The translations under genes and the position numbers were made by a program. Of a stretch of 45,127 bases of DNA, positions 38,661-44,132 are shown one piece after another. The stretch is from a virus, in IMG/VR virus record IMGVR_UViG_3300035043_000056, positions 1 through 45,127 of that record. One strand, given 5' to 3'. Position 1 is the first letter of the stretch. Each line of letters begins with the position of its first letter. A model generated the notes under the pieces. That model saw nothing but the letters and a program-made list of their open reading frames with translations, made no database searches and was not told where the DNA came from.

Positions 38661-40670
38661 TTAAGCCGGTGGTGGATCTGCTACTGCTTTAACGCAATAG
38701 AGATCGACCGATGCCACCGCCACCTGAATTTCCGAATTGAATGTTTTCAAATTCGAAGAAACATAGAGTGTCGGATTAGTCGTATTGCGCGTTGCGAATA
38801 GAATTTCTTTTTCGTCTTCACCACCTGGATCATAAATAGAATAAGAAAAAGCGTCCTGATAGCTACCCGAAACACTGAAGGTATAATTTGCACCACTGTC
38901 ATTCTGCGCCCAGGTCAAACCATCTGAACTTTCATACACACCAATCGTAGCAGAATGCGCGATAAACTGTCCAAGAACATCACTGTAAAACACATAATAA
39001 AAACCATCAAATGTGTTGAGATTTTGTTCTTCCAAAGTCCATGACGTTCCATTCGAGGAAGACTGAATACCACAGTCATCACCAACCGCAACCCACAGTC
39101 CTTCGGTTGCTGAATAACAAATGGATTGAAGACGATCAGTGTTTGTATCGGGATTTCGATCAGTCCATGTTCCACCGGTCGAGTTCGATGATTTAATGTG
39201 ATCAAAAGAGCTATCACCTACAGCGACAACCATGTCAACACCGTTGTCTGCAAACGCATAACAACCACCGGCACCCGCCTGAGTGAAGACATACGAAAAT
39301 GCAGCACCATCTGTCGAACGAGCAATGTCATTGCCGTTACCGACAAATGTGTCTTGTAAAAAGTCGCAATAATGAATGCCGTAATTTGTGCCGCTGCCTA
39401 CAATATCACCAGTACACGCTGTCCATGTCGCACCATCATCATCACTATAATAACCACCGTTATTCAATGTTGCTGACACCAGAATAATCCAGCGATCCTG
39501 GTTGCTGTCATGGGTGATCGCAACGACATTCCTAGAATCAGCACTTTCAAAAAGATAATTGCTATAGGTCGAAATGTTGGTTGTCGTGATCGTATAAATA
39601 CCAGCATTATCATAACCAAATAGAATATAGTCACCGTTTACACTATCATAGGCGAGTGCGTTATTTGATGTGAGATCGATACCAAGACCTGTTGAATTTG
39701 CAGTCCATGACGATGATGCACCGGTAGTCGAAGTTAAAAAATATGTTTGGTTAAAACCATTAGAACCTGATGCAACAAATTGAGAGCCATCCCAAATAAT
39801 ACCACCAGCCACATAAGCAAAACTTGCTTCAGTTCGTGTCCATGTTGCACCATTATCCGTTGAGCGATGAACCTCACCACCAAAATGTGTGACAATAACC
39901 CATGTTCCAGATCCATCAGTCGCAACATCAAATACGTCTTCCGTGGAAGATGATCCTAATGCTGAAACCGTAAATGTGGCACCATGATCAGTGGAATAAG
40001 CGACATACCCATCTTCCCCACCAACAACGACATTACCAGAACCATCATGTGTCACACAAACACCATCACTGAAGCTCGATGTCACATCAACACGCGCACT
40101 GGAAATTTCGGACCAGTTGGTTCCATCAGTCGATCTGTTCACACCAACATAATAAGTTGTGAAACCACTACTATAAAAAGTGACAACACAAACATAAGCG
40201 GAACCGGTCCAAACAACTTCACCTGTGCCACCACTACTGATCCTTCCACCCGCAATCGGGGTCAGGGTAGTCGATGTCCAGCTAGAACCACCGTTTGTTG
40301 AATAATAAAAATTATTACTCGCAGAAATCCACAAACGACCATTTGCATAGCTGAGTGAATTTGTTCCACAAAAAGAGGAAGGAAGATTGCCGGTGATATT
40401 CGTCCACGTTGCACCTGCATCATCCGATGTCCAAAACTCCTGAGAGCTTGTGACATCGTTCCGCATGTGAACCCACCAAGTTCCATTATTGTCAGTGACA
40501 ATTTTATATGACCGACCATCCGTGGGTGCATAAGGTAACGGTCTTAATGTCCATGACGCACCAGCATTGTCGGAGAACCAGATATTCCCCGCCTGTCCAC
40601 CAGTCATAATCCGACCTTGCCAGCTTGCCGGTGGTTCACCTCCAAAATGTGTGGTAGGAAACGTGAACAT
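38661..40670 (-). CDS. BNR/Asp-box repeat beta-propeller tailspike (sialidase/glycosidase-like)
   Basis: About 11 S-x-D-x-G-x-(T/S)-W boxes, for example SDNAGASW, SDDAGATW, STNGGSSW, STDGTNW, STDNGATW, SDDDGATW and SSDGLTW. Confidence 0.8.
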   Translation of the reverse strand: MFTFPTTHFGGEPPASWQGRIMTGGQAGNIWFSDNAGASWTLRPLPYAPTDGRSYKIVTDNNGTWWVHMRNDVTSSQEFWTSDDAGATWTNITGNLPSSFCGTNSLSYANGRLWISASNNFYYSTNGGSSWTSTTLTPIAGGRISSGGTGEVVWTGSAYVCVVTFYSSGFTTYYVGVNRSTDGTNWSEISSARVDVTSSFSDGVCVTHDGSGNVVVGGEDGYVAYSTDHGATFTVSALGSSSTEDVFDVATDGSGTWVIVTHFGGEVHRSTDNGATWTRTEASFAYVAGGIIWDGSQFVASGSNGFNQTYFLTSTTGASSSWTANSTGLGIDLTSNNALAYDSVNGDYILFGYDNAGIYTITTTNISTYSNYLFESADSRNVVAITHDSNQDRWIILVSATLNNGGYYSDDDGATWTACTGDIVGSGTNYGIHYCDFLQDTFVGNGNDIARSTDGAAFSYVFTQAGAGGCYAFADNGVDMVVAVGDSSFDHIKSSNSTGGTWTDRNPDTNTDRLQSICYSATEGLWVAVGDDCGIQSSSNGTSWTLEEQNLNTFDGFYYVFYSDVLGQFIAHSATIGVYESSDGLTWAQNDSGANYTFSVSGSYQDAFSYSIYDPGGEDEKEILFATRNTTNPTLYVSSNLKTFNSEIQVAVASVDLYCVKAVADPPPA

Positions 40671-40679
40671 TGAAACCCC

Positions 40680-43600
40680 TTATGCAAATGCCAACTGTGC
40701 CACACCGTACATATTCGTACCGTCAGACACAAAGGTTAGAATATCGACTGCACCTGCGCCTGTTGAAAGTGTCGGTGCGACACCACCAGGCCATTTATAG
40801 TTGGCACCGTATCCAAGCGTTCTGCTGCCGGTGCCATCCTGAACAACACGAAGAATGTATGTGCCACCATTGACAGCATTCGTCGGGTTTGCAAGCGTCC
40901 GGTTGCCACCAAGGGTGACATGCGCGACCTGCTGAGTTGCAAGGTTCCAGTTGATCGTAGCACCGTCAGACAGACCTTGACTTCCAAAGTTCTGCTGCGC
41001 AGTGAAGGTTGTTGATGTCCCTGGTGCAACATAATCAGTGCCAGCAACCGCAGCCGAAAATGCTGAAGTACCGTTGCCTTTCAAAACACCAGTAAGAGTT
41101 GCCGCACCAGAACCGCCGTTTGCAACAGCAAGGGTGCCGGTCACTGCATTCGACTGTGCAAGGTTGACAGCACCAAAACCTAACGATGTGCCGGATCTAC
41201 GAAGAACCTGATGATCAGAACCGGCTGCGATGGAAGCCTGAACACCTGTTGAGTTCGCAGAACGGCCCGTCACAGAGAGCGCAGATCCGTTGACGAAGTT
41301 TGCAAAAAGAAGTGTGCCGGTCACACCTGAAGAAAGTGGAAGACCAGTACAACTTGTCAACACACCGGAAGCCGGTGTTCCAAGAGCAGGTGTCGTCAGT
41401 GTCGGAGAAGTGAGTGTTTTGTTGGTCAGTGTTTGCGTTGCCGCCAGCGTCACAACATTGTCACCTTCAACAGCAATCACACCAGCCGAAACGCGGGTGA
41501 TTGTAGTGTCGGAAGCATGACCAACATTGATTGCCGTGAATTGAGGCGAATCACCAGTGCCTAAACCAAGCGACGTTCTTGCGGTCGCACCACTCTCAGC
41601 AACCCATGTCGAGCCGTTACCAACGATGATATTTCCGTCCGTAACCGCAAGAGCCGCAATCGCAGCGAGATTTGTGCTATAAGCCTGAACAGAAGAGCCA
41701 ATGAGGTTCGCGGTTAGGATGTTGTTGCCTTCGATAGCCAGAACACCTGCTGAAACACGAGTGATGGTACTATCGGATGCGTGACCGACATTGACAGCCG
41801 TAAATTCAGGCGAGTTGGATGTACCAAGAGAAAGATTATCACGCGCTGTGGACGCATTATCGAGATCCGAGAGGTTATTTGCAACGAGAAGCGCACCAAC
41901 CGCAGAAGATGCAGCCGCAGCAAGCATCCAATAATCAGCTTCGTTGGTGCCGGTGCCAGGTCGATCATTCGCAAGGTCGGATGTGTGAGCCTGAAGACAG
42001 AAATAACTCGCACCATCATAGCTCACACAATCGCCGTACTGGTAAGCGGTCATGTCTGCCCATGCACCACGGAAAATCACACCACCGTCACCAGCAGATG
42101 CAATATAAATCGTCCAATCAGAGTGAGAGCCGGAACCCTCATAACGTTTGACGGAAACCTGAAGCGATGTGCCGGTGTAATCAGAAATTTGTCCGAAAAT
42201 ATAATCGTTCATCGGATCTGCATCCGAAACGATCATCACATACTGACCAACATTAAACTGCTTACCGGATTGTGTGGTGAATGTTTTGCTACCCAAGCCG
42301 ATTGTCACGCTCGTCGTTGATGTACCGCGCAAATTCGCAGCCGCCGCAGCCGCAATCGCAGCGTTTTCTTCGGCATTTTGAATATCAACAATATTCGCAG
42401 CAACCGTTTGCACATCTGCACTGATACCGGCAACCGTGGTCACATCTGTTGAAATTCCAGCCACCGTGGTCACGTTCGCACTGATACCGGCAACCGTGGT
42501 GACGTTTGCGCTGATACCGGCAACAGTCGTGACGTTCGCATTGATACCAGCGACCGTATTGACGTTCGTGATGTTTGTGGAAACGGTGTTGACAGATGCA
42601 ATATTCGTCGAAACAGTCGTGATCGGTGAAAGATTGGATGCAACCGTACTGACCGCGCTGCTGATACCGGCAACAGTGGTGACATTCGCAGAAATTCCCG
42701 AAACAGTCGTTACATCCGAACTGATAGATGAAACATTTGACACCGCTGCATCGATTGCAGCCACCGCAGCGATCTCTGTATCGATTGCAGCCACCGCAGC
42801 AAGATCAGCCTGGTTGATTGCAGTTGCAGCCGTAATATCAGCCGCGATGGATGCGACAGTTTGAACATCAGCATCGATTGCAGCCACCGCTGAAACATCC
42901 GAAGAGATCCCTGCCACAGTTCCAACATTCGCGCTGATACCTGCGACAGTCGTGACCGCATTATCGATTGCAGCTACCGCTGAAACATCAGTGTCGATTG
43001 CAGCGACCGCCTGGATTTCAGTCGAAATCGCAAGCACTGTCGAAATATCACCTGCAATCGCAGCAATACCGGCAAGATCACCCGCAACCGCTGCCACAGC
43101 TTCAATATCATCTTCGATAGCTGCAAGGCTCACGATTTTAGGTGCAAGGCCAGCAACAATTTCAACTTCAGTATCGATTGCAGCGACCGCATTCACACTT
43201 GTCAACGCACCGGCAACCGCCGTGACCTCAGCATTAATGACAGAAACAGTTTGAACATGAGTTGCGACACCCGCAACAGTCGTAACGTCGCTATCGATGC
43301 CAGCAACCGTGTTGATGTTCGTCGTGTTACCAGCAACAGTCGTGATATTCGCGCTGATCGGGCCGAGGGCTGTAATTTCAGTGTCAAGGCCAGCAACCGT
43401 GTTGATGTTCGTCGCATTTCCAGCCACGCTGGTCACGTTCGCAGCGATGCCAGCGACCGTATCGACATCACCTGCAATCGCACCGACCGCTGCAACGTTG
43501 CCAGCGATGCCAGCCACAGTCGTTACATCGCTATCGATTGCCGCAACTGCCGAGATCGCTGAAGAGATCGGGCCGAGGGCTGCAACAGAGGCCGCAATAC

Positions 43601-44132
43601 CGGCTACCGTGGTCACTTCACTGTCAACTGCCGCAACCGTGGAAATCGCGCTCGTGATCGCACCCAATGCAGACACCTGAGAAGCGACACCGGCAACTGC
43701 CGACACATCACTATCGATACCAGCGACGGTCGTGACGTTCGCTGCAATCGCATTCACACCTGAAATCGCTGCCGAGATCGCGCCTAAAGCTGCAACCTCA
43801 GTATCAAGACCAGCAACGGTCGTGACATTCGCTGCGATACCCGCAACGGTCGTAATATCTGCTGCAATTCCGGCAACAGTCGCAATATCACCAGATCCGG
43901 CACCTAAAATCGCCAAAATTCCAGGCGCAAGGTGTTCGGTATCGACGATTTCATTCGCAAGGGTGCCATCCGACTTTTGGATCAAGCCTAAATTGGTGAT
44001 CAACTCATCGGTTGTGATCTGAATATTGTTAAATTCGATCTCAATCTTATCAGCCGGAAGCGGGGTAGTCGGGTTCGCGGTCTGAAAAGACGTAAAATCG
44101 TAACTTGGCTCGTATGGTGTAGGTGCTGACAT
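40680..44132 (-). CDS. Tail fibre (1150 aa) with a decapeptide-repeat shaft, a CBM5/12-like module and a C-terminal receptor-binding region
   Basis: The N-terminal fibre-attachment-like segment is followed by ~50 x 10-aa repeats. GAWADMTAYQYGDCVSYDGASYFCLQAHTS is a CBM5/12-like pattern. The fibre motif NLSDLDNASTARDNLSLG is also present. Confidence 0.85.
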   Translation of the reverse strand: MSAPTPYEPSYDFTSFQTANPTTPLPADKIEIEFNNIQITTDELITNLGLIQKSDGTLANEIVDTEHLAPGILAILGAGSGDIATVAGIAADITTVAGIAANVTTVAGLDTEVAALGAISAAISGVNAIAANVTTVAGIDSDVSAVAGVASQVSALGAITSAISTVAAVDSEVTTVAGIAASVAALGPISSAISAVAAIDSDVTTVAGIAGNVAAVGAIAGDVDTVAGIAANVTSVAGNATNINTVAGLDTEITALGPISANITTVAGNTTNINTVAGIDSDVTTVAGVATHVQTVSVINAEVTAVAGALTSVNAVAAIDTEVEIVAGLAPKIVSLAAIEDDIEAVAAVAGDLAGIAAIAGDISTVLAISTEIQAVAAIDTDVSAVAAIDNAVTTVAGISANVGTVAGISSDVSAVAAIDADVQTVASIAADITAATAINQADLAAVAAIDTEIAAVAAIDAAVSNVSSISSDVTTVSGISANVTTVAGISSAVSTVASNLSPITTVSTNIASVNTVSTNITNVNTVAGINANVTTVAGISANVTTVAGISANVTTVAGISTDVTTVAGISADVQTVAANIVDIQNAEENAAIAAAAAANLRGTSTTSVTIGLGSKTFTTQSGKQFNVGQYVMIVSDADPMNDYIFGQISDYTGTSLQVSVKRYEGSGSHSDWTIYIASAGDGGVIFRGAWADMTAYQYGDCVSYDGASYFCLQAHTSDLANDRPGTGTNEADYWMLAAAASSAVGALLVANNLSDLDNASTARDNLSLGTSNSPEFTAVNVGHASDSTITRVSAGVLAIEGNNILTANLIGSSVQAYSTNLAAIAALAVTDGNIIVGNGSTWVAESGATARTSLGLGTGDSPQFTAINVGHASDTTITRVSAGVIAVEGDNVVTLAATQTLTNKTLTSPTLTTPALGTPASGVLTSCTGLPLSSGVTGTLLFANFVNGSALSVTGRSANSTGVQASIAAGSDHQVLRRSGTSLGFGAVNLAQSNAVTGTLAVANGGSGAATLTGVLKGNGTSAFSAAVAGTDYVAPGTSTTFTAQQNFGSQGLSDGATINWNLATQQVAHVTLGGNRTLANPTNAVNGGTYILRVVQDGTGSRTLGYGANYKWPGGVAPTLSTGAGAVDILTFVSDGTNMYGVAQLAFA
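42378..43895 (-). repeat. 30-bp periodic coding repeat array (decapeptide VAGIxxxVxT, ~50 units)
   Basis: Covers residues ~81-585 of the fibre. Near-identical 30-bp DNA units are visible at 42421-42560. Confidence 0.9.

What the first reader, a model, noticed from the sequence alone, without database searches (positions are those of the whole stretch)
42378..43895. About 50 in-register decapeptide repeats (VAGIxxxVxT) form a ~500-residue tail-fibre shaft
From residue ~81 to ~585 of the 1150-aa fibre, the sequence follows a strict 10-residue period. Examples are TVAGIAADIT, TVAGIAANVT, TVAGLDTEVA, ALGAISAAIS ... TVAGISANVT (x3), TVAGISTDVT. The hydrophobic V/L position stays in register for 36 consecutive units (residues 86-436). 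There is then a single 1-residue insertion near 440-447, followed by 14 more units. Known fibre periodicities that I can name are heptads and hendecads (coiled coils), collagen triplets, the T4 gp5 VxGxxxxx octads and the adenovirus 15-mers. A 10-residue Ala/Val/Gly/Thr-rich period fits none of these, and may indicate a different trimeric beta-helix or beta-spiral, or an unusual coiled coil. At the DNA level several 30-bp units are nearly identical (42421-42560), so shaft length could change by unequal recombination.
Basis: seen in the sequence. Interest (0 to 1): 0.63.

Follow-up and report, generated by a model that had tools for sequence, protein, structure and literature searches.

The report
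Ten-residue-repeat helical tail-fibre shaft
A phage tail-fibre gene encodes 50 back-to-back ten-residue repeats that most likely form a very long three-stranded helical rod whose spacing sits at the theoretical limit for such rods; thousands of mostly marine phage fibres share the repeat, but no structure of it has been solved.

Summary
ORF 40680-44132 (-) encodes a 1150-aa tail fibre. Residues 85-585 are 35 decads, one 11-residue unit (435-445) and 14 more decads, with consensus T-V-A-G-I-x-a-D/N-V-T. The DNA claim is overstated. Units average 52% identity, the best pair is 26/30, and the longest exact repeat is 26 bp.

The hydrophobic period is 10/3 = 3.33, with none at 3.5. With an in-register alignment, AlphaFold2 predicts ten units as one continuous helix (pLDDT 91.9). 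The same register runs through Leu/Glu/Lys-rich units in coliphage N4 gp66. Relatives interleave 11- and 14-residue coiled-coil-type units.

Best reading (about 0.7): a parallel trimeric alpha-helical "decad" coiled coil about 65-73 nm long. It acts as a spacer between a 75-aa virion anchor and carbohydrate-binding distal domains. A beta-helix is unlikely.

The repeat is common: 2271 clusters at 50% identity and more than 600 IMG/VR stretches. Unit number varies from 9 to 52, and close relatives differ by 10-50-aa indels. No Pfam or NCBIfam model covers it, and no solved structure does (N4 gp66 is modelled only to about residue 80).

The scan had flagged this repeat before on other genomes, including N4 gp66. 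This is a new variant of a known kind, and trimer geometry is untested.

The parts
40680..44132 (-). Tail-fibre ORF, 1150 aa
   Evidence: ORF list. PHROG tail-fibre families phrog_22284 (E=1.6e-11), phrog_21412 and phrog_9017. tblastn to annotated tail fibres.
43911..44132 (-). N-terminal anchor module, residues 1-74 (presumed virion attachment)
   Evidence: 60-70 of the first 84 residues are identical in P0001-P0006. The module is also joined to fibres that lack a decad shaft at that junction (P0061, P0008). AF2 gives helices 13-19 and 27-49 with pLDDT 80-87. It has no Pfam T7 N-terminal domain (PF03906) hit and no PDB relative.
43881..43910 (-). Degenerate lead-in unit, residues 75-84 (ILGAGSGDIA)
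   Evidence: The PSSM chain starts at residue 75.
42831..43880 (-). Decad block 1: 35 units, residues 85-434
   Evidence: AF2 predicts residues 265-364 as one helix, pLDDT 91.9.
42798..42830 (-). Single 11-residue unit (hendecad) AATAINQADLA, residues 435-445
   Evidence: Register shift of +1. The same xVAGIDxxDL[A/S] 11-mer type recurs in many relatives. It lies inside the most confident helix of the first AF2 model (H408-499; pLDDT 83-90 over residues 421-460).
42378..42797 (-). Decad block 2: 14 units, residues 446-585
   Evidence: TRF period-30 arrays lie at 42400-42568.
42333..42377 (-). Ala/Glu-rich helical end of the shaft, residues 586-600 (NAEENAAIAAAAAAN)
   Evidence: Sequence. AF2 helix H531-600 runs through it. 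The same NAEENAA junction occurs in relatives P0012, P0016 and P0059.
42066..42332 (-). Post-shaft domain of unknown fold, residues 601-689
Evidence: Sequence. No family hit.
41958..42065 (-). Carbohydrate-binding module CBM_5_12, residues 690-725
   Evidence: Pfam PF02839, 37.8 bits against a cut-off of 26.2, E=1.9e-9. PDB hit to the chitinase A1 chitin-binding domain 1ED7.
41274..41900 (-). Distal module with an internal 50-aa duplication (residues 758-807 and 846-895), shared with many other phage fibres
   Evidence: Self-alignment score 185. Residues 810-953 match many IMG/VR loci at 47-84% identity.
40698..40973 (-). C-terminal domain, residues 1054-1145, probable receptor-binding tip
   Evidence: phrog_9017 tail fiber protein, residues 1080-1145, E=3.2e-8. 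Shared at 57-64% identity with loci L011, L014 and L042.

Best explanation
Residues 85-585 form the shaft of a homotrimeric phage tail fibre. Three parallel alpha-helices wind around each other in a strongly left-handed coiled coil. Its core repeats every 10 residues over 3 helical turns (10/3 = 3.33), not every 7 over 2.

Proposed anatomy (inferred): V at position 2, I at 5 (or 6) and V/I at 9 make the core, and all-beta-branched cores favour trimers. Small residues (T/A at 1, A at 3, G/A at 4, A/T/S at 7) allow a tight radius. Position 4 is where Gly and the rare Pro concentrate. It probably marks a local overwinding or 3-10-like turn in each unit that relieves strain. The single 11-residue unit is a local relaxation.

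Proposed function (inferred): the rod is a spacer about 65-73 nm long. It holds the carbohydrate-binding distal domains away from the 75-aa virion anchor. It is a swappable module, and its length changes in whole units over evolutionary time.

Shown here: the periodicity, predicted helicity, spread, unit-number variation and modularity. Inferred: trimer state, parallel coiled-coil packing, the role of Gly at position 4, and the length.
For: 1. Periodicity: three near-equally spaced aliphatic positions per decad. Power at 3.33 is 7.7 against a shuffle maximum of 2.0, with none at 3.5.

2. Predicted helicity: AF2 with an in-register alignment of 55 decad windows gives one continuous helix over 10 units. 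Mean pLDDT is 91.9, and four of five models score 85.7 or more. The first, noisier run also gave mostly helix.

3. N4 gp66: residues 52-221 are 17 decads in one register. Classic helix-forming units such as KLDELQLIHN and NLDKLQELYN continue without a register change into TVA-type units. Power at 10/3 is 10.5 against a shuffle maximum of 1.6. gp66 is an appendage trimer (PMC13434306).

4. Irregular units in 120 relatives are mostly lengths that also occur in helical coiled coils. There are 41 units of 11 residues, 26 of 14 (TVAxDLxExxSEIx, two heptads rich in E/L/Q), 31 of 7 and 18 of 17. Units of 8 and 12 residues are rare, at 5 and 8.

5. The array ends in an Ala/Glu helix.

6. Position in the protein: in relatives the decads follow a T7 gp17-type N-terminal domain (PF03906; aligned to T7 gp17 residues 7-135). 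In T7 that position holds a triple-helical coiled coil (PMC13485008).

7. Geometry: at trimer radii an undistorted 3.63-residue helix cannot reach 10/3 by supercoiling alone. It must overwind to about 3.45-3.55 residues per turn. This agrees with the literature, where 10/3 is taken as the lower limit and single stammers form 3-10 turns (PMC4786415). Gly (37%) and Pro are concentrated at position 4, and Pro is coupled with Leu at position 2.
Against: - No trimer was modelled and no structure exists. The AF2 runs are monomer predictions, and Ala-rich periodic sequences can give over-confident helices.
- The first AF2 run had pLDDT 58 and left residues 265-335 and 500-530 as coil.
- The composition is unusual for a coiled coil: V+I+T make up 40%, G 7%, and there is almost no L/E/K/R.
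- With continuous hydrophobicity scales the period-2 harmonic is as strong as the 10/3 harmonic.
- The motif V-A-G resembles the V-x-G corner of the T4 gp5 beta-helix.
- Units of 13 and 16 residues with GxDTIG are also common in relatives: 54 and 30. They may be non-helical breaks.
- A continuous run of 50 stammers has no structural precedent.
Confidence: 0.7

Rival explanations
1. The decads are helical, but they do not form a continuous parallel three-stranded coiled coil. One possibility is a chain of short helical segments kinked at the G/P position of each unit or at LGP units. Others are a rod that folds back into an antiparallel bundle, or a different oligomer.
For: - Gly (37%) and Pro are concentrated at position 4, with coupled LGP/LAP variants.
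- The first AF2 model breaks helices exactly at the GP units 185-186 and 255-256.
- Geometry shows that 10/3 cannot be met by an undistorted helix.
- Single stammers are absorbed by 3-10 segments (PMC4786415).
Against: - AF2 gives an unbroken helix over 10 units, including a Pro-containing unit.
- The hydrophobic seam is perfectly periodic for 350 residues, which suggests one continuous packing mode.
- The fibre homologues N4 gp66 and T7 gp17 are parallel trimers.
Confidence: 0.15
2. The decads form a trimeric beta-structure. This would be a ten-residue-per-face relative of the T4 gp5 VxGxxxxx triple-stranded beta-helix, or a beta-spiral.
For: - The V-A-G motif resembles the gp5 V-x-G corner.
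- The composition is rich in V/I/T/G/N/S and poor in L/E/K.
- The odd positions (T, A, I, a, V) are on average more hydrophobic than the even ones, which gives a strong period-2 harmonic.
Against: - The most conserved aliphatic residue (V at position 2, 49/49 aliphatic) would point outward if the odd positions faced the core.
- AF2 predicts helix at pLDDT 91.9.
- N4 gp66 carries the same register through Leu/Glu/Lys/Gln-rich units that are typical helix formers.
- Relatives insert heptad-type 14-mers and 11-mers.
- The array merges into an Ala/Glu helix.
Confidence: 0.1
3. The repeat is a flexible, largely unstructured low-complexity linker with no defined fold.
For: - The N4 gp66 shaft is not resolved in cryo-EM; only about residues 1-80 are modelled (PMC13434306).
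- The first AF2 run had low pLDDT.
Against: - Three aliphatic positions are strictly conserved over 50 units and across thousands of proteins, while codons have drifted to background. This indicates selection on a packed structure.
- Indels come in whole units.
Confidence: 0.05

Closest known systems
Coliphage N4 gp66 appendage ('60 kDa protein'; PDB 9LC0, 9YF4, 9YF5)
   Same: It is the only PDB sequence hit to the shaft (E=3.4e-4). It has 17 decads in one register with hydrophobic positions spaced 3-3-4. It is a trimeric side fibre of a podophage.
   Different: The array is much shorter (17 units against 50). About half of its units are Leu/Glu/Lys-rich rather than TVAG-type. Its N- and C-terminal domains differ. 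Its shaft is not modelled in the deposited structures (about residues 1-80 only), so it offers no structural template.
Tail fibres of marine T7-like podophages (pelagiphages HTVC series, roseophages CRP series, cyanopodophages such as S-TIP37)
   Same: They share the TVAGIxxNVT decad shaft (23-44% of the query covered at 34-51% identity). Like the window's fibre, they are annotated as tail fibres.
   Different: Most carry the T7 gp17-type N-terminal domain PF03906, whereas the window's fibre has a different 75-aa anchor. Their arrays are shorter (median 24-27 units). Their distal domains differ.
T7 gp17 proximal rod (triple-helical coiled coil)
   Same: It occupies the same place in the fibre, between the tail-binding N-terminal domain and the receptor-binding distal part. 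It is also not yet resolved structurally.
   Different: From my memory of the gp17 sequence, T7 uses heptad-type repeats with charged and polar residues. The window shows no 3.5 or 7 signal at all.
Stammers (single decads) in trimeric autotransporter stalks and GCN4 fusions (Hartmann et al. 2009, 2016)
   Same: They have the same local 10/3 periodicity within a trimeric coiled coil. The strain is absorbed by a short 3-10 segment (PMC4786415).
   Different: Those are isolated single insertions in a heptad background. Here 35 and 14 decads follow each other with no heptads at all.
T4 gp5 C-terminal triple-stranded beta-helix (VxGxxxxx)
   Same: It has a V-x-G motif and makes a trimeric phage fibre or needle rich in V/G/T/N.
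   Different: Its period is 8, not 10. It shows a strict in/out alternation, which V at position 2 violates here. The window's repeat is predicted helical.

Membership tests
Decad-shaft tail fibres (unnamed; N4 gp66 and marine podophage fibres; PHROG 22284/21412) | Tandem 10-residue units with aliphatic residues at positions 2, 5/6 and 9 | tested here: met
   49/49 units are aliphatic at positions 2 and 9. Lag-10 identity is 0.44.
Decad-shaft tail fibres (unnamed; N4 gp66 and marine podophage fibres; PHROG 22284/21412) | Significant sequence similarity of the shaft to other members | tested here: met
   phrog_22284 E=1.6e-11. More than 4133 hits in the 90% library. 2271 clusters in the 50% library. 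N4 gp66 E=3.4e-4.
Decad-shaft tail fibres (unnamed; N4 gp66 and marine podophage fibres; PHROG 22284/21412) | Shaft placed between an N-terminal virion anchor and variable distal binding domains in a phage structural gene | tested here: met
   Anchor at residues 1-74. CBM_5_12 and distal modules. The window is a complete phage genome encoding terminase, portal and major capsid protein.
Alpha-helical trimeric coiled coil | Alpha-helical secondary structure | tested here: met
   Prediction only: AF2 gives a continuous helix at pLDDT 91.9 and mostly helix at pLDDT 58.
Alpha-helical trimeric coiled coil | Core periodicity within the accessible range (about 3.33-3.9 residues per turn) | tested here: inconclusive
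   The periodicity is exactly 3.33. This is the value the literature takes as the lower limit. Simple geometry requires overwound helices.
Alpha-helical trimeric coiled coil | Canonical heptad repeat | tested here: not met
   Power at 3.5 and at 7 is about 0.02.
Alpha-helical trimeric coiled coil | Three parallel chains with knobs-into-holes packing | not testable with these tools
   Only single-chain prediction was available. The trimer state is inferred from N4 gp66 and T7 gp17.
T4 gp5-type triple-stranded beta-helix | Octapeptide VxGxxxxx period | tested here: not met
   The period is 10. Power at period 8 is 0.02.
T4 gp5-type triple-stranded beta-helix | Beta-strand conformation with alternating inward-facing residues | tested here: not met
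   AF2 predicts helix. V at position 2 breaks the alternation. The period-2 harmonic is present, so this is not fully excluded.
Collagen-like or adenovirus triple beta-spiral shafts | Gly every third residue, or a 15-residue repeat | tested here: not met
   Gly occurs once per 10 residues. Power at period 15 is 0.02 and at period 3 is 0.05.
T7 gp17-type tail fibre (Pfam PF03906 N-terminal domain) | PF03906 N-terminal tail-binding domain | tested here: not met
   No PF03906 hit at E<=1. A profile of the N-terminal module finds no PDB sequence. Many relatives do carry PF03906.
CBM family 5/12 (distal domain only) | Pfam PF02839 above the gathering score | tested here: met
   37.8 bits against a cut-off of 26.2, residues 690-725.

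The most novel reading that the evidence does not exclude
The shaft is a continuous, 500-residue, parallel trimeric coiled coil built only of decads. That amounts to 50 consecutive 'stammers'. It would be the most overwound natural coiled coil. Each unit might be an alpha/3-10 hybrid with its turn at the conserved Gly. This would define a new regular fibre geometry at the 10/3 limit that coiled-coil theory treats as the boundary, and it would be used by thousands of abundant ocean phages.
Probability: 0.5. Interest if true: 0.7.

Novelty: new variant of a known kind. Interest (0 to 1): 0.55.

Why it matters
Coiled coils are the best-parameterised protein fold. Published work treats 10/3 = 3.33 residues per turn as the lower limit, and it has been seen only as isolated single insertions that locally break into 3-10 helix (PMC4786415).

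This fibre offers a natural, perfectly regular array of 35 and 14 consecutive decads. It is tied for the longest of the 249 proteins measured. It would make a good test object for how far helices can be overwound.

The module is also ecologically widespread. It appears in the fibres of pelagiphages, roseophages, cyanopodophages and N4-like phages. A structure and a family model would therefore improve annotation of host-recognition genes in marine viromes. They would also explain how shaft length is tuned in whole units.

For this particular window the protein itself is an ordinary tail fibre. The interest lies in the repeat class.

Tried and rejected
- Profile of five-decad windows (A2) against PDB sequences: 0 hits even at E<=10.
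- Foldseek of the single-helix model against the PDB: 0 matches, so uninformative.
I used a single 110-aa piece instead.
- Whole-fibre scan of IMG/VR: no full-length close relative, only shared modules. A same-species comparison of repeat number was therefore not possible.
Variation in unit number within a population could not be examined.
- Literature searches for 'decapeptide repeat' + tail fiber, '10-residue repeat' + phage + fiber, and 'decads' + coiled coil + phage: no papers.
- Pfam at E<=1 and NCBIfam: no model covers the shaft.
- N-terminal anchor profile against the PDB, and the anchor against PHROGs: nothing significant.
- Collagen, gp5-octad, adenovirus 15-mer, heptad and hendecad periodicities: rejected from the spectrum.
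- Recent slippage as the origin of the array: rejected, because identical peptides use different codons and codon identity is near background.
Full report
**What is there**

The window is a complete 45,127-bp virus record with direct terminal repeats. It encodes a large terminase, a portal, an SU10-type major capsid protein, an internal virion protein with an SLT domain, and a primase-helicase. Its capsid protein is only 38-40% identical to those of any isolated phage.

ORF 40680-44132 on the minus strand gives a 1150-aa protein. The finding's coordinates correspond to residues 80-585.

**The repeat**

Written in rows of ten, the sequence is visibly periodic. The exact parse is as follows:
- 35 decads at residues 85-434;
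- one 11-residue unit, AATAINQADLA, at 435-445;
- 14 decads at 446-585;
- a degenerate lead-in unit at 75-84.

The position profile is 1 T/A, 2 V (V/L/I in 49/49), 3 A, 4 G/A, 5 I, 6 variable, 7 A/T/S, 8 D/N/E, 9 V/I, 10 T/S.

Residue identity at lag 10 is 0.44, against about 0.1 at other lags. The hydrophobic spectrum peaks at 3.33 residues (7.7, against a maximum of 2.0 in 1000 shuffles). There is nothing at 3.5, 3.67, 7, 8, 11 or 15.

Three details are slightly off:
- The aliphatic position stays in register for 35 units, not 36.
- TVAGISANVT occurs twice, not three times.
- The DNA units are not nearly identical.

On the last point, mean unit identity is 52% and the best pair is 26/30. TRF gives 73-82% matches. 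The longest exact repeat is 26 bp. At positions with the same residue, the same codon is used in 40% of unit pairs, against 33% expected from codon usage. The array is therefore old and is maintained at the protein level.

**How common it is**

- No Pfam model (E<=1) or NCBIfam model covers the shaft. Only PHROG 'tail fiber protein' families do.
- tblastn finds the shaft in 54 phage records. Most are pelagiphages, roseophages and cyanopodophages, with the match annotated as tail fibre.
- A word-seeded search gave more than 4133 hits.
- An exhaustive profile search of 1.84 billion cluster representatives gave 2271 clusters at E<=1e-3 and 390 at E<=1e-30.
- Partner domains vary: PF03906 (T7 N-terminal domain), PF13884, PF02839, PF00386 and others.
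- Earlier notes of this scan describe the same repeat on at least ten other genomes. One follow-up identified it in N4 gp66.

**Repeat number**

In the 120 best relatives, the decad chain has 11-52 units (median 27). In 248 proteins it has 9-52 units (median 24). The window's 52, counting lead-in and cap, ties for the longest.

Six relatives share the window's N-terminal module (60-70 of 84 residues identical). They differ from the window in the shaft by indels of 10, 20, 30, 40 and 50 residues. Length therefore changes in whole units over evolutionary time. The diverged DNA argues against frequent present-day slippage.

**Alpha or beta**

Evidence for helix:
- With an in-register alignment of 55 non-redundant 100-aa decad windows, AlphaFold2 predicts residues 265-364 as one continuous helix. 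The windows came from the window itself and from IMG/VR loci. Mean pLDDT is 91.9, and four of five models score 85.7 or more.
- A first run with a gappy whole-protein alignment also gave mostly helix, but at pLDDT 58.
- The only PDB sequence hit is coliphage N4 gp66, a trimeric appendage modelled only to about residue 80. Its residues 52-221 are 17 decads in one register. Typical helix-forming units (KLDELQLIHN, NLDKLQELYN) pass without a register change into TVA-type units. Power at 10/3 is 10.5, against a shuffle maximum of 1.6.
- In relatives, 91% of unit spacings are 10. The commoner exceptions include 11-mers (41), 14-mers made of two E/L/Q-rich heptads (26), 7-mers (31) and 17-mers (18). 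Spacings of 8 and 12 are rare.
- The array ends in an Ala/Glu helix.
- In relatives with a T7-type N-terminal domain, the decads occupy the place of T7's triple-helical proximal rod.

Evidence against helix:
- The composition is unusual for a coiled coil: V+I+T make up 40% and there is almost no L/E/K/R.
- With continuous hydrophobicity scales, the period-2 harmonic is comparable to the 10/3 harmonic.
- V-A-G recalls the gp5 V-x-G corner.
- 13- and 16-residue units containing GxDTIG are common in relatives.
- All structure evidence comes from single-chain prediction.

I put a parallel trimeric decad coiled coil at about 0.7. A helical but kinked or otherwise non-canonical assembly is at 0.15, a beta-helix or beta-spiral at 0.1, and a disordered linker at 0.05.

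**Why the geometry is unusual**

The coiled-coil literature takes 10/3 as the lower limit of accessible periodicities. It reports that single three-residue insertions are absorbed by a short 3-10 segment (PMC4786415).

A simple Crick-type calculation shows the constraint. At radii of 5-6.5 Å, an undistorted 3.63-residue helix cannot reach 10/3 by supercoiling at any pitch angle. With pitch angles of 15-30 degrees the helix must overwind to 3.45-3.58 residues per turn. The 501-residue rod would then be 65-73 nm long.

Across 2670 distinct units, Gly (37%) and Pro (2.6%, the highest of any position) concentrate at position 4. Pro there is coupled with Leu at position 2, as LGP or LAP. I read this, by inference, as the site of a regular local distortion.

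**Rest of the fibre**

- Residues 1-74 are an anchor module. It is shared with fibres that lack a decad shaft at that junction and has no solved or named relative.
- After the shaft come a domain of unknown fold (601-689) and a CBM_5_12 module (690-725, above the Pfam cut-off).
- Next is a duplicated 50-aa module that is widely shared among phage fibres.
- The protein ends in a C-terminal tail-fibre domain (phrog_9017).
- The next gene downstream encodes a BNR/Sortilin-type repeat protein.

**Limits**

- No multimer prediction and no coordinates were available.
- No close full-length relative exists in IMG/VR.
- The literature library does not cover subscription journals. 'Not described' therefore means 'not found'.

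**Verdict**

This is a real, highly regular, ancient repeat. It is an ordinary tail fibre by function. It is one member of a very large unnamed class of decad shafts whose likely structure is a continuous 10/3 coiled coil. That structure is unsolved and lies at the edge of what coiled-coil theory allows.

Noticed in passing
window 38661-40670 (-): The 669-aa ORF 10 bases downstream of the fibre gene is full of SxDxGxTW-type (BNR/Asp-box) repeats. It hits Pfam Sortilin-Vps10 (E=3.6e-9, 36.4 bits, above the 33-bit cut-off). It also weakly hits NCBIfam F510_1955 glycosylhydrolase, below that cut-off. It may be a second receptor-binding or glycan-degrading tail protein.
   Followed up: partly
window 42436-42864, 42952-43254, 43297-43680, 43732-44022 (+): Four antisense ORFs of 96-142 aa lie opposite the repeat. 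They show a mirrored decapeptide (PATVVTFALI...). They look like by-products of the periodic codon composition, not genes.
   Followed up: no
window 41712-41861 and 41448-41597 (-): An internal duplication of a 50-aa module (SPxFTAxNVGHASDxTITRVSAGVxAxEG) lies in the distal part of the fibre. The same module occurs in many IMG/VR fibres at 47-84% identity.
   Followed up: partly
window 43911-44132 (-); proteins P0061, P0008: The 75-aa N-terminal anchor (PxPYxxxYDFTxFQ...PLPA...LIQxxDGxLxN) is a separate module. In two relatives it is joined directly to non-decad sequence. It has no Pfam, PDB or significant PHROG match.
   Followed up: partly
relatives P0023, P0027, P0041, P0082 and others; P0002, P0009, P0028 and others: Two kinds of non-decad unit recur inside decad arrays of other fibres. 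One is a 14-residue TVAxDLxExxSEIx unit (two heptads). The other is a 13/16-residue unit with DLxGxDTIG. The second might be a hinge or another non-helical break. Neither occurs in the window.
   Followed up: partly
whole window: The window is a complete 45,127-bp phage genome with direct terminal repeats. Its SU10-type capsid protein is only 38-40% identical to the nearest isolates, Microcystis phage Mae-Yong1326-1 and Rhizobium phage RHph_N65. The host is unknown.
   Followed up: partly
window 43389-43414 and 43299-43324: The longest exact DNA repeat inside the array is 26 bp. Its two copies lie three units (90 nt) apart, in the TVAGNATNIN and TVAGNTTNIN units.
   Followed up: yes
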